From the NCBI GenBank assembly GCA_034661015.1, contig JAYEKN010000022.1, positions 1 to 26,766 on the forward strand: 26,766 bases of DNA, given 5' to 3'. The notes beneath the pieces were generated by a model. That model saw nothing but the letters and a program-made list of their open reading frames with translations, was not told the origin of the DNA and did no database searches. Positions 1 through 26,745 of the stretch are shown here, in pieces. Position 1 is the stretch's first letter. Each line of letters begins with the position of its first letter. This DNA is from Candidatus Cloacimonadota bacterium. GTDB taxonomy: Bacteria > Cloacimonadota > Cloacimonadia > JGIOTU-2. A program made the translations under genes and the position numbers.

Positions 1-257
1 GAAAAATAAGATTGCATTTTTCAAAGAGAATATTCTTTGTGAATTTTGGAGAGAGGAATTGAGATTGGCAAAAGAGATGAAACAATTCAGCCTTTTTGCT
101 TTTTGTTTGAATTATGATCATTTTCATCTTTTAATCAAACCTAAAAATAAAATTGCAAATTATTCTCAAATTATGCATTTTATCAAAAGACATACATCAC
201 GGAATATAAACATTATTTTGGGATATAACAAAATTGATTTGGAAAAAATGATCAATC

Positions 258-365
258 CCACCGAAAATGACATTGGAATTCCATCCACCGAAAATGACGT
301 CGGAATCTCATCCCCCGAAAACGATGTGCAAATTCCCTCCACCGAAAACGATGTCGGAATTTTAT
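258..365. repeat. Tandem array of four imperfect 27-bp repeats (ccaccgaaaatgacNNcggaatNNcat), in frame inside the transposase-remnant ORF
   Basis: Direct reading gives units at 258-284, 285-311, 312-338 and 339-365. Each unit resembles the left arm of the palindrome that follows (cccccgaaggcgacgttggcc). Confidence 0.8.
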
Positions 366-403
366 CCCCCGAAGGCGACGTTGGCCAACGTCGCCTTCGG
401 GGG
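366..403. repeat. Perfect 38-bp palindrome cccccgaaggcgacgTTGGCCAAcgtcgccttcggggg (REP-like hairpin)
   Basis: Exact inverted repeat, 19+19 nt with no loop. It lies directly 3' of the 27-bp array and is related to a second palindrome at 25699-25724 (same TTGGCCAA centre, same ggcga/tcgcc arms). Confidence 0.85.
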
Positions 404-660
404 ATGAAATTCTCTAAATTCAATCTTCATCATTCTCCTTTTGTTCTTTAATTCCCTGCATCCATTAAACCAAGGCTTCGTTATAGAAAAAGAACTTCGC
501 CCGTGCAGGCAAGGATTGAAAAGCGATTGAACAATTCATAATTCATAATTATTATTTTTATTTGTGCTTGTTAAAAAAAATGTCTGAAATGATTGACAGA
601 TTTTGCCGAATAAAATTCTTTAGAAGAAGAAAAACAAAAAATAAATATTTCGGAGGAAAT

Positions 661-2451
661 ATGATGAAAAACGTGCAAAGTTCTCAAAACGGTTGGGTAA
701 AAATTTTGGCAATTTCAGCTGCTATGATATTTATCCTATTTAATCTCTGCTTAGCAGAACAGTCTGATACTTACAGTTGGGAAGATGGCGGTGTAAGTCT
801 TGGTTTTTATGGAAATGCTGTTCTGGAAAATAGCACTGAACAAGCTTACGACGAAACTCACAGCTTGAAATATACTGAAGAACCAATTGGTGGAACGCCA
901 CAAGTTTATATCTGGTGGATTACCGGTTTATCTGATGGTGATGTGATCGATGCAAGTTTCTGGGTGTATGATAGCACTCCGGTTGGCGATTATCCAAAAG
1001 GAAGAATTTGGGGTCATTATACTTCTGATCCGGAAGACATTACTTCTTATGCCGGCAGCGCAGGCGGAAACGATACTTATTCTACTGAAGGCTGGTCACA
1101 ACTTTCATTTTCTTGGACATTTGAAGCCGGGACAGACCATGATGGATTTGTGCTTGAATCACGAATTTATAGCGGTGCAGGTGCAAACGTGATTTATGTT
1201 GATATGACCGAAATTACGATAAGTAACGATGATGCTGTCATCCATTGCATTGGCGTGGCTTCCAATCCTACTATCCAAGAAGCATATTGTGCTTCCGGTT
1301 CCGAATTGCTCCTTTACTACGATCTTGATCTGGAAACGGTTTCTCCAGCAAGTTATGCTCTTAGCGGAACAGCGGATATTACTTTTGGAACCGCTACTAT
1401 TGATGGCAATGACGCAAAACTCGTTCATCTTACAGATCCATCTGCAACTATGGTTGGAGACCTTACGGTTGACACGATTACAGATAGTGAAAATCCTTCC
1501 AATGCAGATCTATATGCCGGGATTCTGCCAATTTCTGTTACAAACACCTTGAATCCCCCGGGGACAATTGAAGATGGTATAACCGCCACATTTTCTGCAA
1601 CAGTTTCTGCGAACGACGGATATAACAATGTTTGGGTAAGTGAGATGCCCGGTCCATATAATGGATCTATGATTTTTGATATGAACTTTCCAAGTGTAGT
1701 TTCCCTTTCAGATGCGATTGTTTTTGCTGGTTCCAGAGATGAATATTATGGTTTGACAGAAATAAAAAATCCTGCATTGATCTCTTCCACTACCGGAAGT
1801 GCTCCGATTCCTTCCACTATTCCAGGATTACAAATTGATATAGAAATCCCGGAAAACACTAATCCTGCCGAGCAATGGGAAGGTCAATTGATCCGTATCG
1901 AAAACGTTTTTGTGGCAACTCCTACGGACACAAATCTTACATACATTGGTTCTGATGATGATTGGGAAACAACCTTTGTTATTGGTGATAATGTTGATTA
2001 CAATTTCTCAAGCAGCGGGACAATTCTTGATCAAGTAATTGCCACCGGACAGTCAATTAGAATAACCGGAGTATGTGATTTTTCATACGAAAATTATGGA
2101 ATCAATCCGCGAGATTCTTTGGATATTCTTATCACAGGAAATAGTATTGGAGAAAATAAGATTGGAAACAACGATATTCTCTTACAAAATTATCCGAATC
2201 CTATCCACGATCTTACAACCATTTCCTTTAATCTCTCGCAACCGGCAAACATTAATCCCCAGATTAAAATTTATAATTTGCAAGGGCAACTCGTGAAAAC
2301 TCTTGATACTGAAAATGTTTACGAAAACTTTTTTGCAGCGGACTGGAATGCAGAAAATGAGAATGGCAATCCTGTTAAGAATGGAATTTATTTCTATAAA
2401 ATTGAAACAGCACAAAAAACATTTCAAAGCAAAATGATTCTTATGCGTTAG
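661..2451 (+). CDS. Secreted protein of unknown function with a T9SS (Por) C-terminal sorting domain
   Basis: RBS ggagga lies 4 nt before ATG-ATG at 661. There is an N-terminal signal/TM (WVKILAISAAMIFILFNLCLA). The C-terminus NYPNPIHDLTTISFNL...IKIYNLQGQLVKTL...NGIYFYKIETAQKTFQSKMILMR is a typical T9SS type-A C-terminal domain (TIGR04183-like). The body has no recognisable catalytic motif. Confidence 0.7.
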   Translation: MMKNVQSSQNGWVKILAISAAMIFILFNLCLAEQSDTYSWEDGGVSLGFYGNAVLENSTEQAYDETHSLKYTEEPIGGTPQVYIWWITGLSDGDVIDASFWVYDSTPVGDYPKGRIWGHYTSDPEDITSYAGSAGGNDTYSTEGWSQLSFSWTFEAGTDHDGFVLESRIYSGAGANVIYVDMTEITISNDDAVIHCIGVASNPTIQEAYCASGSELLLYYDLDLETVSPASYALSGTADITFGTATIDGNDAKLVHLTDPSATMVGDLTVDTITDSENPSNADLYAGILPISVTNTLNPPGTIEDGITATFSATVSANDGYNNVWVSEMPGPYNGSMIFDMNFPSVVSLSDAIVFAGSRDEYYGLTEIKNPALISSTTGSAPIPSTIPGLQIDIEIPENTNPAEQWEGQLIRIENVFVATPTDTNLTYIGSDDDWETTFVIGDNVDYNFSSSGTILDQVIATGQSIRITGVCDFSYENYGINPRDSLDILITGNSIGENKIGNNDILLQNYPNPIHDLTTISFNLSQPANINPQIKIYNLQGQLVKTLDTENVYENFFAADWNAENENGNPVKNGIYFYKIETAQKTFQSKMILMR

Positions 2452-2458
2452 GAAAGAC

Positions 2459-2705
2459 TATTTAGAGTCTATCCGTTAAGTATAGATTGGACGCAGATGA
2501 TCGCTGAAAAAATTGATTTACGCAGATAAAAATTTAATTACAAAAAAAGTAGTATCCCCGTTGAATGCTTTGTGTTTTAATATTCAACAGGGGTTTATCT
2601 GCCGAATCAGTGCTTGCCCTGTGGAATGTTTTTGCATTTATATTCCACTTGGGGTTTTTCTGCGTCGAATCATCCACCGGCTGACGGATGCACACTTTGT
2701 TAGGA
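2459..2705 (-). repeat. Copy C of a modular structured intergenic repeat family, inverted relative to copies A and B; the right end is diverged
   Basis: The left end tatttagagtctatccgttaag...ggacgcagatga aligns with the reverse complement of the 3' end of copy B (aattagagtctgtccgtaaattagggattcgacgcagatga). The internal hairpin ccccgttgaatgctttgtgttttaatattcaacagggg is the reverse complement of B's cccctgttgaatattaaaatacaaagcattcaacgggg. The gggg-ttt(a/t)tctgc(c/g)(g/t)cgaatca module is duplicated. Confidence 0.7.
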
Positions 2706-2711
2706 GATTAC

Positions 2712-2749
2712 GATAGCCTTACGCAAAATTGTGTAAGGCTATCTTTTTT
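2712..2749 (+). terminator. Rho-independent terminator: 11-bp perfect stem gatagccttac/gtaaggctatc, 10-nt loop, T6
   Basis: Seen directly: gatagccttac gcaaaattgt gtaaggctatc tttttt. It lies immediately 3' of repeat copy C and 170 bp upstream of the endonuclease gene. Confidence 0.7.
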
Positions 2750-9799: not shown

Positions 9800-10005
9800 A
9801 ATTAGTGTCCAGCCGTAAACTCGCATTTTTGCAATGATTCTCCGAATGTGATTCGACGCAGAAAAACACTGATTATGCTGATAAACGCTGATATTACACT
9901 TTTTACAAAAAATTTTTATCTTGCGAAAATTCACTTTTTTTCAGCGTGATGTTGTTTATCACATTCATCTGCGTCGAATCCCTACTTTACGGACAGACTC
10001 TAATT
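9800..10005 (+). repeat. Copy A of the modular structured intergenic repeat family (imperfect terminal inverted repeats AATTAG(A/T)GTC...CCGTAAA plus a long internal stem)
   Basis: Aligns with copy B (15721-15949) over its whole length except for a missing 38-nt hairpin module and an extra small gtgatgttgtttatcac hairpin. The 5' attcgacgcaga pairs with the 3' tctgcgtcgaat. The ends aattagtgtccagccgtaaa and tttacggacagactctaatt are inverted. Confidence 0.8.
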
Positions 10006-10021
10006 AGCGTTATATTTGTGA

Positions 10022-10078
10022 GTTGGAAAATCTTAAGTCAAGTTCAAAAAAACGGAATTTAACTCAAGATTTTCCAAC
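10022..10078 (-). terminator. Long hairpin (17-bp stem with one G-U) downstream of the rlmD stop; possible terminator with a weak U-tract
   Basis: gttggaaaatcttaagt...acttgagattttccaac (reverse complements). It lies 30 nt after the rlmD stop codon. There is no clean T-run on either side, so terminator function is uncertain. Confidence 0.4.
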
Positions 10079-10108
10079 TTCTCGAACGATACTTATTTTC
10101 AAAAAACC

Positions 10109-11521
10109 TTAGTTCTTCACTAGCTTCGTTACAACCTCAATATGAGCAGTATGCGGGAACATATCTACAGGTTGAACCGCATCAATGCGATATTTTCCTT
10201 TTTCGGTAAAAATTTTCAAATCACGTACTTGAGTGGAAGGTTTGCAGGAAACATAAATTATTTCTTTTGGGGCAATTTGAATTATTTCGCGAATAAGCTG
10301 AAAATTTATTCCTGCTCTCGGTGGATCAAGAATCATCAAATCGGGAGATGGAAATTCTTTAATTTTTTCAGTATTTTTCTGAAAATATTTATCCAGATTG
10401 CTTTCGATGAATTCCACATTTTCAATTCCATTCAATTTTGCATTAATTTTTGCATCTTCCACGGCTTGGTGAACAATCTCAAAACCAATAACTTTTTTCA
10501 CAAACGGTGCCAAATAAATGGCGATGCTACCTGCTCCACAAAACAAATCCCACACAATATTGTCTCTTTCCAAGTTAGAAAAATTCTTAATGAGTTCATA
10601 CAATTTCTCAGCCATGTAAGTATTCGTTTGAAAAAATGACTCTGCTGAAATACGAAATCGAAACTTACCTAATTTTTCTTCGATATATTTTTCTCCGAAA
10701 AGCAGATTATATTTCTCGCCCTTTGTAGTTCCAGAAAGCGTGTCTGTTACCGCATTAACAATAGAAGGAAGATTTGGCAAAGATGCTGCCAACTTCTTCA
10801 CAAGCCCATTAAATAACTCCGGTCTATCGTTCTTCGTTATAATATTTATCATTATTTGGTCAGTATTATAACCCTTTCGCAGCATAAGATGACGCAGAAA
10901 ACCCTGATGTGTCTTTTGATTATGAGGTTGCAAATTATTTTCAATTGCGAATTTGCGAACTATTGACATAATTTTTTCGGATTCAAGCGGAGCAATGAAG
11001 CATTTATCAATATCAATAGTTTTCATATAGCTTTTGTTCGGACGCAAGCCGAGTGCAAAATTTTCATCTTTATGCTCATCAATGCCCGGCATCAACCAAC
11101 GGTATGGGGAGAATGAGAATTCCATTTTGTTGCGGTAATGATAAATATTTTCACTTCCGATAATCGGAAGAAAATTGATCTTGCTAAATCCGCCTAAATG
11201 TTGATAAGTGTCCTTTACTTGCTTTTCGAGATAAAACAGTTGCTCATCATAGGGAAGATTTTGGTACACACATCCCCCACAATGTTTGAAATATTTGCAA
11301 CGTGGTTCAATTTCAGTTGGGCTCTTTTGTAAAATCTCTGTTACATTCGCTTCTGCATAAGATATTTTTGCTTTGGTAACAAAAGCTCTCACGGTTTGAC
11401 CCGGAATTCCCCCTTTCACAAAAATACAATACTTGCCGATTCGGGCAATTCCTTTTCCCTCGTATGCAAGATCTACGATTTCCAGATCAACTATTTGTCG
11501 TTTTTTTACAGGTCGGTTCAT
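10109..11521 (-). CDS. rlmD: 23S rRNA (uracil-5-)-methyltransferase RlmD/RumA family
   Basis: N-terminal TRAM domain; Fe-S cysteines C-x5-C-x2-C (CKYFKHCGGC) plus a downstream Cys; SAM MTase motifs DLFCGAGSIAIYLA and ILDPPRAGI. 470 aa. Confidence 0.85.
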   Translation of the reverse strand: MNRPVKKRQIVDLEIVDLAYEGKGIARIGKYCIFVKGGIPGQTVRAFVTKAKISYAEANVTEILQKSPTEIEPRCKYFKHCGGCVYQNLPYDEQLFYLEKQVKDTYQHLGGFSKINFLPIIGSENIYHYRNKMEFSFSPYRWLMPGIDEHKDENFALGLRPNKSYMKTIDIDKCFIAPLESEKIMSIVRKFAIENNLQPHNQKTHQGFLRHLMLRKGYNTDQIMINIITKNDRPELFNGLVKKLAASLPNLPSIVNAVTDTLSGTTKGEKYNLLFGEKYIEEKLGKFRFRISAESFFQTNTYMAEKLYELIKNFSNLERDNIVWDLFCGAGSIAIYLAPFVKKVIGFEIVHQAVEDAKINAKLNGIENVEFIESNLDKYFQKNTEKIKEFPSPDLMILDPPRAGINFQLIREIIQIAPKEIIYVSCKPSTQVRDLKIFTEKGKYRIDAVQPVDMFPHTAHIEVVTKLVKN

Positions 11522-11569: not shown

Positions 11570-11605
11570 GCGAAAAATTTAAATCAATCCGCCAGTCGGC
11601 GGATT
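11570..11605 (-). terminator. Rho-independent terminator of the NMO-family gene: 8-bp GC-rich stem aatccgcc/ggcggatt, 4-nt loop, then a U-rich tract on the minus strand
   Basis: On the minus strand the order is stop - aaaacttgagtt - hairpin - gatttaaatttttcgc. Confidence 0.6.
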
Positions 11606-11617
11606 AACTCAAGTTTT

Positions 11618-12745
11618 CTATGCTAAAAGTGGCAATGGAACTTTAATTTCAGAAACTGCTTTATTGAATTCATCCTTCAAACTGTTGAACAACTCCTGAA
11701 CCGAGACAATTTTATCCGTGAGATATGCGTTTGCACCGGCAAAAGCAAATCCGTTTTTCAGTATTCCCTTTTGTGCATTCGTTAGTGCCAGAGCAATGCA
11801 GTAGGGAGAATTTTTGTAATCGCAGGTTTTTAAGCACTTCCAAGGGCAAGTATAGGGCTTTTTTACACCGGCAAAAACATCTTTCAAAAAATCATTTATA
11901 ATTGCTCTACCAGGTAATCCCACCGGACTATTAATGATTCCAATATCTTTTTTTGTACAATCAAGATATGCTTTTTTGAATTCGTAATCCGCATCACACT
12001 CATGAGTTGTTACAAATCTTGTACCCATTTGAATACCATTTGCTCCGAGATGAAGAAATTTTAAAATATCCGCTCCTGTATAAATTCCACCTGCTGCAAT
12101 GAGCGGTATTTTTTTGTTACATTTCATTTCGTAGATTTCAACAATATTTCGAACAGCAGGCAAAATATTTTCAAGAGAGAATTCAGGATTCTCGATTTGA
12201 TCAAGTTTAAAGCCGAGATGCCCACCTGCTTTGGGTCCTTCAATCACAACCACATCCGGTAGATAATTAAATTTTTTATCCCAAATCTTAAATATAATAT
12301 TAGTAGCTCTGGCGGATGAAACTATCACCCCAACTTTTGTTTTCATTTTTTTTAGATAATTAATATTTAATTTTTTAGGAAGTTTCAGGGGAAGACCAGC
12401 CCCAAGAAAAATAATATCAATTTCTTCGTCTAATGCTATTTCAACAATTTCATCAAAATCTGATGCTGCCACCATGATATTCAAACCGAGAATCCCATTT
12501 GTCATTTTTTTAGCTTGTCGAATTTCAGCTCGAAGGGCGTCTTGGTTTGATTTTTTGTAACCACCTTTAAAACCTGATTTCACCAATCCCAAACCAACAG
12601 ATGAAATCACTCCAATCCCACCTTGTTCGGCAACTGCTGCTGCTAAACGAGACAGGGAAATTCCCACACCCATTCCGCCTTGAATAATAGGTTTTTCTGC
12701 AACTAAATTTCCAATCCTTAATTTTGGCATAACTTGTTTGATCAC
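11618..12745 (-). CDS. Nitronate monooxygenase (NMO, 2-nitropropane dioxygenase; FabK-like) family FMN oxidoreductase with a C-terminal Cys cluster
   Basis: GTG start at 12745 lies 7 nt after RBS aaggag. NMO-family glycine-rich FMN-barrel motifs are present (IIQGGMGVGIS, GGIGVISS, IAAGGIYTG). The C-terminus carries C-x3-C-x3-C-x7-C (CPWKCLKTCDYKNSPYC). Confidence 0.65.
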   Translation of the reverse strand: MIKQVMPKLRIGNLVAEKPIIQGGMGVGISLSRLAAAVAEQGGIGVISSVGLGLVKSGFKGGYKKSNQDALRAEIRQAKKMTNGILGLNIMVAASDFDEIVEIALDEEIDIIFLGAGLPLKLPKKLNINYLKKMKTKVGVIVSSARATNIIFKIWDKKFNYLPDVVVIEGPKAGGHLGFKLDQIENPEFSLENILPAVRNIVEIYEMKCNKKIPLIAAGGIYTGADILKFLHLGANGIQMGTRFVTTHECDADYEFKKAYLDCTKKDIGIINSPVGLPGRAIINDFLKDVFAGVKKPYTCPWKCLKTCDYKNSPYCIALALTNAQKGILKNGFAFAGANAYLTDKIVSVQELFNSLKDEFNKAVSEIKVPLPLLA

Positions 12746-15576: not shown

Positions 15577-15650
15577 TGGCTGGGATGGAAGGAATCGAAC
15601 CCTCATCTACGGAACCAGAATCCGCCGTCCTGCCGTTAGACTACATCCCA
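15577..15650 (-). tRNA. tRNA-Gln (anticodon CTG)
   Basis: Minus-strand TGGGATGTAGTCTAACGGCAGGACGGCGGATTCTGGTTCCGTAGATGAGGGTTCGATTCCTTCCATCCCAGCCA. The 7-bp acceptor, TTCGA T-loop and anticodon loop TTCTGGT fold by hand. CCA is encoded. Confidence 0.8.
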
Positions 15651-15720
15651 GTAAAAGATTGTGGCAAATCCTCAAAAGAGAAATTTATAAAAATTCGTGT
15701 AACTCGTTTTAAAATGAATC

Positions 15721-15949
15721 AATTAGTGCCCATCTGTAAACTCGCATTTTTGCAATAATTCTCCGAAGGTAATTCGACGCAGATAAACACTGATTATGCT
15801 GATAAACCCCTGTTGAATATTAAAATACAAAGCATTCAACGGGGCAAGCGCTGATAATACAGTTTTTATAAAAAAATTTTATCTTGCGAAAATCGGTTTT
15901 TTCAGTGTTCATCTGCGTCGAATCCCTAATTTACGGACAGACTCTAATT
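15721..15949 (+). repeat. Copy B of the modular structured intergenic repeat family, lying between the two tRNA-Gln genes
   Basis: The 5' end aattagtgcccatctgtaaa and 3' end tttacggacagactctaatt are inverted. The long stem attcgacgcagataaacactga/tcagtgttcatctgcgtcgaat pairs at 21 of 22 positions. The internal hairpin module is cccctgttgaat...attcaacgggg. The element ends 4 nt from the CCA end of tRNA-Gln(TTG). Confidence 0.8.
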
Positions 15950-15953
15950 AAAA

Positions 15954-16028
15954 TGGCAGGGTCGGTAGGAGTCGAACCTACGAATGCAGAGACCAAAACC
16001 CTGTGCCTTGCCGCTTGGCGACGACCCT
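15954..16028 (-). tRNA. tRNA-Gln (anticodon TTG)
   Basis: Minus-strand AGGGTCGTCGCCAAGCGGCAAGGCACAGGGTTTTGGTCTCTGCATTCGTAGGTTCGACTCCTACCGACCCTGCCA. Perfect acceptor and T stems; anticodon loop TTTTGGT. Confidence 0.75.
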
Positions 16029-16059
16029 GTGCAAAAAAAATGAAATAAATCTGAGATAA

Positions 16060-16151
16060 TGGCGGAGAGACAGGGATTCGAACCCTGGGTGAGGTTCTAT
16101 CCCCACACACGCTTAGCAGGCGCGCACCTTCAGCCACTCGGTCATCTCTCC
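16060..16151 (-). tRNA. tRNA-Ser (anticodon GCT), class II with a long variable arm
   Basis: Minus-strand GGAGAGATGACCGAGTGGCTGAAGGTGCGCGCCTGCTAAGCGTGTGTGGGGATAGAACCTCACCCAGGGTTCGAATCCCTGTCTCTCCGCCA. Anticodon loop CTGCTAA. Confidence 0.8.
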
Positions 16152-16219
16152 CGTAATACATTTTCCCAAAGGGTGAACACACCCGATTTAGAAAAGTGAA
16201 CTGCCTAAAAAATTGCAAA

Positions 16220-16307
16220 TGGCGGAGGAGGTAGGATTCGAACCCACGGATGCTTGCACATCAACGGTTTTCAAGACCGCCGCCTTCAACCACTCGACCA
16301 CTCCTCC
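16220..16307 (-). tRNA. tRNA-Ser (anticodon TGA), class II
   Basis: Minus-strand GGAGGAGTGGTCGAGTGGTTGAAGGCGGCGGTCTTGAAAACCGTTGATGTGCAAGCATCCGTGGGTTCGAATCCTACCTCCTCCGCCA. Anticodon loop CTTGAAA. Confidence 0.8.
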
Positions 16308-26688: not shown

Positions 26689-26700
26689 TTTAGAAGAAAA

Positions 26701-26745
26701 CTTGAGTCAATTCACCTTTTGTTGGATTGACTTGAGTTTTCTATT
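26701..26745 (+). terminator. Rho-independent terminator: 11-bp perfect stem cttgagtcaat/attgacttgag followed by TTTTCTATTT
   Basis: It begins 13 nt after the SPFH-gene stop codon. The loop is 14 nt. Confidence 0.6.

What the first reader, a model, noticed from the sequence alone, without database searches (positions are those of the whole stretch)
2459..2749. All three repeat copies lie just after the 3' end of a gene in the same orientation relative to flanking transcription; copy C is followed by a strong terminator
Copy C starts 8 nt after the stop of the 597-aa T9SS cargo gene (plus strand). Copy A starts 17 nt after the rlmD terminator hairpin (minus strand). Copy B starts 4 nt after a tRNA 3' end (minus strand). 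When each copy is read in the direction of its flanking genes, the same strand of the element is read in all three cases. Copy C is followed immediately by a canonical rho-independent terminator (2712-2749). This non-random placement and polarity suggests a transcribed function, for example a 3'-UTR-derived or stand-alone sRNA or a transcript-stabilising structure, rather than a randomly inserting MITE. Alternatively it suggests insertion targeted to terminator-like structures.
Basis: partly seen in the sequence, partly recalled or inferred. Interest (0 to 1): 0.6.

Follow-up and report, generated by a model that had tools for sequence, protein, structure and literature searches.

The report
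Modular palindromic mobile repeat downstream of genes

Summary
Copy C (2459-2703, +) starts 8 nt after a T9SS-cargo gene stop and ends 8 nt before a textbook intrinsic terminator (2712-2749). Copy A (10006-9800, -) starts 15 nt after a strong palindrome downstream of an rlmD-like gene. Copy B (15950-15721, -) starts 4 nt after tRNA-Gln(UUG). All three are co-oriented with their flanking genes.

The element is a 207-245-nt, AT-rich, non-coding repeat. It has imperfect terminal inverted repeats, nested inverted motifs, and an internal hairpin module present 0, 1 or 2 times. This is a MITE with BOX-like modularity. It matches no Rfam family and nothing in phage or plasmid collections. The only outside copy is in one metagenome contig (L003). 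There it abuts a ParE-like toxin gene truncated at codon ~26 and lies antisense to it, which is evidence of mobility and a counter-example to the polarity rule.

Co-orientation of 3/3 has p=0.25, and covariation support is nil. The known families BOX, RUP and SPRITE show the same enrichment at gene 3' ends through selection. A transcribed role, such as a terminator-like hairpin on the sense strand only, remains possible but untested. The decisive genome-wide census could not be run.

The parts
2459..2703 (+). Copy C, the most diverged copy. Order of modules: TIR-L (TATTTAGAGTCTATCCGT), U1, U2, hairpin H1 (2556-2593), U3', hairpin H2 (2617-2654) plus T5 (2655-2659), U4', TIR-R. It lacks the small S hairpin.
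2712..2749 (+). Canonical intrinsic terminator of the T9SS-cargo gene (14-bp stem, 4-nt loop, T6). It is native flank, not part of the repeat.
9800..10006 (-). Copy A. It lacks hairpin module H and carries a private 19-nt mini-hairpin insert (GTGATaaacaacATCAC).
10021..10079 (-). Strong palindrome downstream of the rlmD-like gene (-28 kcal/mol), with no T-tail. It belongs to a second small repeat family and is not part of the element.
15721..15950 (-). Copy B, with one H module (15844-15807). It lies between tRNA-Gln(UUG) 16028-15954 and tRNA-Gln(CUG) 15650-15577.
562..2451 (+). Upstream gene of copy C, a secreted protein with a T9SS C-terminal sorting domain.
10109..11521 (-). Upstream gene of copy A, a TRAM + (uracil-5)-methyltransferase (RlmD/RumA-like).

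Best explanation
The three copies are members of a new family of non-autonomous, modular, palindromic interspersed repeats. The family is a MITE with BOX-like architecture, in an uncultured FCB-group bacterium (the MAG is labelled Candidatus Cloacimonadota).

Anatomy, shown by the sequence: imperfect terminal inverted repeats of about 20-26 nt (TAATTAGAGTCTGTCCGTAAA ... TTTACGGNTGGACACTAATT); nested inverted 'U' motifs (GATTCGACGCAGATGA / TCTGCGTCGAAT); an AT-rich centre; and an optional 38-nt hairpin module H present 0, 1 or 2 times. The whole element folds into one long hairpin.

Inferred mechanism: copies were inserted by a transposase acting in trans that has not been identified. They survive where they do no harm: just past stop codons, past terminator-like hairpins, or between tRNA genes, and well away from the next gene's promoter (70-187 nt to the downstream gene, against 3-15 nt to the upstream gene end or hairpin). 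Because they sit inside transcription units they are passively co-transcribed as 3' extensions. The co-orientation of the three copies is most simply chance, or a mild selection filter. The filter would arise because the H module looks like an intrinsic terminator only in the sense orientation.
For: - Repeat family and boundaries.
- Long-hairpin fold: z = -9.1, -4.9 and -7.7.
- TIR pairing, columns 10-22 with 215-227.
- No conserved ORF across copies.
- Modular indels made of whole hairpins: H is 0x in A, 1x in B and L003, 2x in C; S is absent in C; A has a private mini-hairpin.
- Mobility: in L003 a ParE-like toxin ORF matches the L089 homologue at 21/24 residues. It then stops where the element begins. 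Nucleotide identity of about 85% collapses within about 10 nt of the element terminus.
- Multi-copy status: independent short-read assemblies of two samples break inside copies A and B, at 9819 and 15765.
- No known RNA family matches.
- No covariation beyond palindromy.
- The same placement pattern is documented for BOX, RUP and SPRITE and is attributed there to tolerance of insertions downstream of CDSs (PMC3049150; review PMC3184786).
Against: - No unambiguous target-site duplication. TAATT at both ends of A and B could be a duplication or part of the inverted repeat.
- No empty site was recovered.
- No cognate transposase with matching ends was found.
- Only four copies are known, so copy number and activity are inferred.
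- Copies differ by 9-18%, so the family may be long inactive.
- The L003 copy is about 89% identical to the window copies. The only visible relative in that metagenome, which may or may not be L003's organism, has mgtE at 71% nucleotide identity. This could mean constraint on the element rather than neutrality.
- The sense strand folds better than the antisense in all four copies.
Confidence: 0.62

Rival explanations
1. The element is a functional, orientation-dependent RNA module. When read on the sense strand it would act as a portable terminator, a 3'-end stabiliser, or the source of a 3'-UTR-derived sRNA. This would resemble SPRITE, or REP/BIME acting as mRNA stabilisers. It is the first reader's preferred reading.
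For: - 3/3 window copies are co-oriented with flanking transcription.
- H modules are 12-14-bp hairpins with a CCCC/GGGG base, followed by TTTAT or TTTTT on the sense strand only.
- H1 and H2 in copy C differ by one compensatory pair (U-A to G-C) and by a wobble-forming transition.
- The sense strand has a lower folding energy and more G-U pairs than the antisense in all four copies: 12 v 3, 7 v 4, 9 v 5, 7 v 2.
- The element is about 89% identical between the window and L003.
Against: - p=0.25 for 3/3.
- L003 lies antisense to the only visible neighbouring gene and interrupts it.
- Copy A lacks the H module altogether.
- Copy B, in sense orientation, sits upstream of a tRNA gene that a terminator would silence.
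- Copy C is followed by the gene's own strong terminator, so it adds nothing necessary.
- Across copies, 6 pairs show wobble-preserving changes on the sense strand, against 3 A-C changes that favour the antisense strand. There is 1 compensatory pair, and the covariation term is +2.25. None of this is significant.
- The G-U pairs are mostly inherited from the master copy and are not independent events.
Confidence: 0.2
2. Placement reflects insertion-site targeting: to hairpin or terminator-like DNA, or to a short AT-rich target such as TAATT.
For: - Copy A is 15 nt from a 21-bp palindrome, copy C ends 8 nt before a 14-bp terminator stem, and copy B is 4 nt from a tRNA acceptor end.
- TAATT is present at both ends of A and B and at the visible end of L003.
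- The uninterrupted toxin gene in L089 reads GATAATATTAG at the corresponding position.
Against: - The side and distance relative to the hairpin differ in each case: after it, before it, or inside an ORF.
- Short intergenic regions downstream of genes nearly always contain a hairpin, so proximity is expected.
- TAATT is common at 36% GC and is palindrome-like, so it cannot be told apart from the terminal inverted repeat.
- There is no empty site to define the target.
Confidence: 0.12
3. The element is a REPIN/BIME-like sequence mobilised by a Y1 (HUH) REP-associated tyrosine transposase. This is prompted by the partial Y1 transposase gene at window 2-451.
For: - The partial ORF hits Pfam Y1_Tnp (31 bits, cut-off 23) and NCBIfam REP-associated tyrosine transposase (E 3e-9).
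- The element is a long imperfect palindrome with no clear target-site duplication. Single-strand transposition by Y1 enzymes is strand-specific and could create polarity.
Against: - The element halves do not fold on their own (z of about 0), so there are no REP-like or subterminal hairpins.
- The element is AT-rich and 5-10 times longer than REPs.
- The visible 3' flank of the transposase gene (452-560) holds no copy.
- The protein matches only model positions 24-88 of 146 and then runs into a 9-aa tandem repeat. The catalytic-Tyr region is not recognisable, so the gene may be degenerate.
- Element orientation follows gene strand through two strand switches within 26 kb, which does not fit a replication-strand bias.
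Confidence: 0.06

Closest known systems
BOX elements of Streptococcus pneumoniae (boxA-boxB(n)-boxC)
   Same: A modular interspersed repeat. The terminal modules pair with each other. An internal hairpin module can be absent or multiple without disturbing the overall fold. It is non-coding, enriched downstream of CDSs, and co-transcribed (PMC3049150).
   Different: No sequence similarity was detected, and the host phylum is unrelated. The element here carries additional nested U1/U2-U3'/U4' inverted motifs. The mobilising IS is unknown.
[quoted passage not shown]
   Same: A mobile repeat carrying a hairpin plus a U-rich tract, found very close to CDS 3' ends (PMC3049150). The H module plus T-run here is analogous.
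   Different: SPRITE is about 105 nt and is a single 18-bp duplex plus a long U tract, without paired terminal inverted repeats. Here the terminator-like hairpin is an optional internal module of a 207-245-nt palindrome, and copy A lacks it.
Classical bacterial MITEs (Correia/NEMIS, ERIC/IRU, RUP, Nezha and others)
   Same: Short, non-coding, with terminal inverted repeats and a long stable hairpin at the RNA level. They are intergenic, can be co-transcribed, and can have orientation-dependent effects on mRNA (PMC3184786; PMC3049150).
   Different: No defined target-site duplication (for example TA for Correia, RUP or IS630-derived MITEs) could be shown. No parent IS is known. The family is so far seen only in one MAG and one metagenome contig.
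REP/BIME/REPIN with RAYT transposases
   Same: Palindromic intergenic repeats at gene 3' ends. BIMEs are mosaics of modules. A RAYT-like gene fragment is present in the window.
   Different: REPs are 20-40-nt GC-rich units with a conserved 5' tetranucleotide. The element here is long and AT-rich, and its halves are not self-folding. No physical association with the Y1 transposase gene was seen.

Membership tests
MITE (miniature inverted-repeat transposable element) | Short (<~400 bp) and lacking a transposase or any conserved ORF | tested here: met
   Copies are 207-245 nt. The ORFs of >=20 aa differ in frame and sequence between copies. The spurious peptides have no homologues among 5.8 billion proteins.
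MITE (miniature inverted-repeat transposable element) | Terminal inverted repeats | tested here: met
   TAATTAG(A/T)G at both termini plus about 13 further pairs. These are columns 10-22 with 215-227, mostly Watson-Crick or G-U in all four copies.
MITE (miniature inverted-repeat transposable element) | Target-site duplication flanking each copy | tested here: inconclusive
   TAATT occurs at both ends of A and B and at the visible end of L003. It cannot be separated from the palindromic terminus. No other direct repeats are seen in the flanks.
MITE (miniature inverted-repeat transposable element) | Multiple dispersed copies in a genome | tested here: met
   There are 3 copies in 26.7 kb. Two independent short-read assemblies break inside the copies. 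The genome-wide number is unknown.
MITE (miniature inverted-repeat transposable element) | Evidence of past insertion (filled versus empty site, or gene disruption) | tested here: met
   This is indirect and rests on one case. The L003 ParE-like toxin ORF is truncated at about codon 26, at the element boundary, compared with the 85-aa homologue in L089. The other side of that insertion lies beyond the contig end.
MITE (miniature inverted-repeat transposable element) | Cognate autonomous IS with the same terminal inverted repeats | not testable with these tools
   The host MAG is not in genome contigs. There were 0 hits in genome, viral, plasmid and phage collections.
BOX-like modular repeat (analogy only) | Variable copy number of an internal hairpin module between conserved, mutually pairing end modules | tested here: met
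   The H module is 0x in A, 1x in B and L003, and 2x in C. H1+U3' and H2+U4' in C form a 61-nt tandem unit with 46/64 identity.
BOX-like modular repeat (analogy only) | Sequence homology to boxA, boxB or boxC | not tested
   No BOX sequences were available for direct comparison. Rfam and BLAST searches gave nothing.
REP / REPIN mobilised by RAYT | A 20-40-nt self-folding GC-rich palindromic unit | tested here: not met
   The 5' and 3' halves fold no better than shuffles as ssDNA (z 0.42 and 0.15). Element GC is 35-38%.
REP / REPIN mobilised by RAYT | RAYT gene flanked by the repeats | tested here: inconclusive
   A partial Y1 transposase lies at 2-451. Its 3' flank has no copy, and its 5' flank is beyond the contig start.
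Integron attC / chromosomal cassette repeats | An array of cassettes in one orientation next to an integrase, with R''/R' core sites | tested here: not met
   The flanking genes are housekeeping genes and tRNAs on both strands. No integrase is among the annotated ORFs. No GTTRRRY/RYYYAAC cores are seen at the ends.
Any curated RNA family (Rfam 15) | Covariance-model score at or above the gathering threshold | tested here: not met
   Only tRNAs reach the gathering threshold. The best sub-threshold hits score 22 bits against a 94-154-bit threshold and are generic long hairpins.
3'-UTR-derived or stand-alone sRNA | A discrete transcript with defined ends | not testable with these tools
   No transcriptome data are available. 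Only weak sigma-70-like matches are found.

The most novel reading that the evidence does not exclude
The element could be a domesticated, orientation-dependent 3'-end cassette: a mobile palindrome whose sense-strand hairpin-plus-U-tract module supplies termination or 3'-exonuclease protection to host transcripts. On this reading, selection keeps it at about 89% identity between organisms whose housekeeping genes have diverged to about 71% nucleotide identity. The co-orientation seen in the window would then hold genome-wide.
Probability: 0.12. Interest if true: 0.5.

Novelty: new member of a known kind. Interest (0 to 1): 0.25.

Why it matters
If it is simply a MITE/BOX-like repeat, it matters mainly for practical work. 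The family fragments short-read assemblies of this uncultured lineage. It creates spurious small ORFs. It should be masked before sRNA or terminator prediction. It also adds an example from a poorly sampled FCB-group lineage to the catalogue of modular palindromic repeats.

It would be of wider interest only if a full-genome census or transcript mapping showed real polarity. That would give a second, phylogenetically remote example of a mobile terminator-like element, with SPRITE as the precedent.

Tried and rejected
1. Genome-wide or cross-genome census by DNA pattern. There were 0 hits in 185,579 GTDB species genomes, 1 hit in JGI metagenomes, and 0 in IMG/VR with three patterns. There were no hits in plasmids or phages.
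2. Census through the element's spurious ORFs in the 5.8-billion-protein collection: no hit.
3. Extending the host genome through exact-protein look-ups. Only short Logan contigs were found, and they break at the repeats.
4. Empty-site search in relatives through RlmD and MgtE homologues. The nearest relatives are 55-80% identical. Synteny is not conserved around mgtE, and there are no copies in about 1.4 Mb of fetched loci.
5. Rfam at gathering and permissive thresholds: nothing.
6. Covariation test on four copies: uninformative.
7. IS200/IS605- or REP-style self-folding ends: rejected.
8. Integron attC, retron, CRISPR and protein-coding readings: rejected from context and the lack of a conserved ORF.
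9. PDB sequence search with the Y1 transposase fragment: no significant hit.
10. Pfam and NCBIfam on the 30-aa toxin remnant: too short to score. This was resolved instead by comparison with the L089 homologue.

Full report
OBSERVATION

The window is an entire 26,766-nt contig of an NCBI MAG labelled Candidatus Cloacimonadota. Its MgtE protein is MEA2103137.1. The nearest relatives by RlmD and MgtE are MAGs labelled Marinimicrobia, Neomarinimicrobiota or Fidelibacterota, at only 55-69% amino-acid identity.

Three copies of one repeat are present:
- Copy C: 2459-2703 (+).
- Copy A: 10006-9800 (-).
- Copy B: 15950-15721 (-).

A 31-nt degenerate core pattern hits exactly these three places, against 0.00 expected.

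- Copy C starts 8 nt after the TAG stop (2449-2451) of an ORF with a T9SS C-terminal sorting domain. It ends about 8 nt before a textbook intrinsic terminator at 2712-2749 (14-bp stem, T6 tail, -22.2 kcal/mol, z -9.3).
- Copy A starts 15 nt after a 21-bp palindrome (10079-10021, -28 kcal/mol) that lies downstream of a TRAM + U5-methyltransferase (rlmD-like) gene. That palindrome has no T-tail, so it is not a canonical terminator. It belongs to a second small repeat family.
- Copy B starts 4 nt after the encoded CCA of tRNA-Gln(UUG). It lies 70 nt upstream of tRNA-Gln(CUG), so it is inside a cluster of four tRNA genes.
- All three copies are co-oriented with the genes on both sides.

ANATOMY

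The copies are 207-245 nt long, have 35-38% GC like the window as a whole, and are 82-91% identical over aligned columns. Read on the sense strand, the modules are:
- TIR-L: TAATTAGAGTCTGTCCGTAAA.
- U1: GATTCGACGCAGATGAA.
- An AT-rich stretch containing a U1-like motif, U2.
- An optional 38-nt hairpin, H: CCCCGTTGAATG...ATTCAACAGGGG.
- U3' and U4' (TCTGCGTCGAAT), which are inverted copies of the U motif.
- A small hairpin, S.
- TIR-R: TTTACGGNTGGACACTAATT.

TIR-L pairs with TIR-R, and U1 pairs with U4', so the whole element forms one long hairpin (z -9.1, -4.9 and -7.7).

Differences between copies are mostly gains or losses of whole modules:
- H is absent in A, single in B, and double in C. 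In C, H1+U3' and H2+U4' form a 61-nt tandem unit.
- S is missing in C.
- A has a private 19-nt mini-hairpin.

No ORF is conserved between copies. The halves do not fold on their own. No Rfam family matches, even at permissive thresholds.

DISTRIBUTION

The core pattern has no exact match in 185,579 species-representative genomes or in IMG/VR. The element has no BLAST match in plasmids or phages. Peptides from its spurious ORFs have no relatives among 5.8 billion proteins. About 1.4 Mb of loci fetched from relatives contain no copy.

One metagenome contig does carry a copy. L003 (AGBJ01002896.1, 1,212 nt) holds a fourth copy that is 87-90% identical and is cut at its 5' end by the contig end.

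Short-read (Logan) assemblies of two samples contain sequence identical to the window. Their contigs stop inside copies A and B, at 9819 and 15765, and in the palindrome at 10046. That is the expected behaviour for a multi-copy repeat.

THE FOURTH COPY ARGUES FOR MOBILITY AND AGAINST STRICT POLARITY

In L003 a DUF2281/VapB-like antitoxin gene is followed by a 30-codon ORF that runs, on the opposite strand, into the 3' terminus of the element. The homologous locus L089 (GCA_030611765.1) is about 85% identical in DNA across the antitoxin and the start of the toxin. It continues into an 85-residue ParE-family toxin (Pfam ParE_toxin, E 1.3e-7).

The L003 peptide matches residues 1-24 of that toxin at 21/24. 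DNA similarity then collapses within about 10 nt of the element terminus. The simplest reading is that the element inserted into the toxin gene. In that copy the only visible neighbouring gene reads the antisense strand of the element. The other junction lies beyond the contig end, so the exact target and any duplication remain unknown.

IS THE POLARITY MORE THAN CHANCE?

- Given the first copy, two further co-oriented copies have p=0.25. With L003 included, the tally is 3 of 4.
- About 23 of about 25 intergenic gaps in the window are co-directional. Lying 'after a 3' end' is therefore close to the default.
- What is notable is proximity to the upstream gene end. The copies are 3-15 nt from the upstream gene end or its hairpin, against 70-187 nt to the next gene start. 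This is what survival outside promoter regions would produce.
- Croucher et al. found the same for BOX, RUP and SPRITE. Those elements are enriched downstream of CDSs, about 61-63% of them follow the coding strand, and the pattern is interpreted as tolerance of parasitic insertions. SPRITE may have been co-opted as a terminator (PMC3049150; review PMC3184786).

HINTS OF STRAND SPECIFICITY (WEAK)

- The H hairpin is followed by TTTAT or TTTTT only on the sense strand.
- H1 and H2 within copy C differ by one compensatory pair.
- The sense strand folds 2.4-12.5 kcal/mol better than the antisense and has more G-U pairs in all four copies.

Against these hints:
- Most of those G-U pairs are shared and therefore inherited from the master copy.
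- Across copies, 6 pairs vary through wobble that is tolerated on the sense strand, and 3 vary through A-C appositions that favour the antisense strand.
- Only 1 of 57 pairs shows a double change, and the covariation term is unfavourable.
- Copy A has no H module.
- Copy B, in sense orientation, sits in front of a tRNA gene.
- Copy C precedes the gene's own strong terminator.

CONCLUSION

The feature is a previously undescribed family of modular palindromic interspersed repeats. It has MITE anatomy with BOX-like modularity and an optional SPRITE-like hairpin. The copies were inserted by an unidentified enzyme and have been retained at harmless positions just downstream of genes, where they are passively co-transcribed (confidence about 0.6).

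A selected, orientation-dependent RNA role has a probability of about 0.2, and site targeting about 0.1. Neither is excluded. They can be decided by a census of the complete MAG, by read-level detection of empty alleles, and by transcript 3'-end mapping. None of these was possible here.

A partial Y1/HUH (RAYT-like) transposase gene at the contig start (2-451) is a lead for the mobilising enzyme. Nothing links it to the element: its visible flank has no copy, and the element lacks REP-like features.

Noticed in passing
window 10021-10079 (-), 11574-11619 (-), 26695-26740 (+): A second, smaller repeat family. These are ~45-60-nt palindromes sharing AGAAAACTTGAGTTAAT...ATTGACTTRAGTTTTC. Each lies just downstream of a gene, on that gene's strand. 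Two are followed by a T-run and are terminator-like. The one after the rlmD-like gene is not.
   Followed up: partly
window 2-451 (+), running off the contig start: The 3' part of a Y1/HUH transposase gene (Pfam Y1_Tnp 31 bits; NCBIfam REP-associated tyrosine transposase E 3e-9). After the HUH motif and the following conserved stretch (IKRHTSRNI) it runs into an in-frame 27-nt x5 tandem repeat (258-392, TENDVGIxS). The usual C-terminal catalytic-Tyr region is not recognisable, so it may be degenerate. It is a possible but unlinked candidate for mobilising palindromic repeats.
   Followed up: partly
L089 3232-3342 (GCA_030611765.1, JAUWPE010000069.1): An unrelated ~110-nt insertion bounded by GGGGGTGGAATA...TATTCCACCCCC inverted repeats. 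It separates the antitoxin stop from the body of the ParE-like toxin gene. The same toxin-antitoxin locus is thus hit by two different small palindromic elements in two genomes.
   Followed up: no
L090 (JGI 3300003123 / AGBJ01; mgtE 73% aa identical to the window) 151-198, 316-355 and contig end 1950-1957: There are weak fragments resembling the H module (+) and the U4'/S region (-) upstream of mgtE (local alignment z 6.5 and 8.4). The contig ends in CTAATTAG about 130 nt after mgtE, which may be the terminus of another copy. Its orientation cannot be decided because the 8-mer is palindromic.
   Followed up: partly
window 15577-16307 (-): A cluster of four tRNA genes: Ser-UGA, Ser-GCU, Gln-UUG and Gln-CUG. 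Copy B is inserted between the two tRNA-Gln genes. The native spacer downstream of the element contains a TTAAAA-N17-TATAAA promoter-like site, read by eye, that could drive tRNA-Gln(CUG) independently.
   Followed up: no
window 9903-9871, 15881-15854 and the equivalent in L003 (sense strand of the element): A conserved TTCGCA-N16-TAAAAA arrangement lies in the AT-rich centre of copies A, B and L003, just upstream of the H hairpin. Copy C has TTACGC-N17-CAAAAA. It is a weak sigma-70-like match read by eye. If active, it would give a ~60-nt RNA ending at the H module. Not tested.
   Followed up: no
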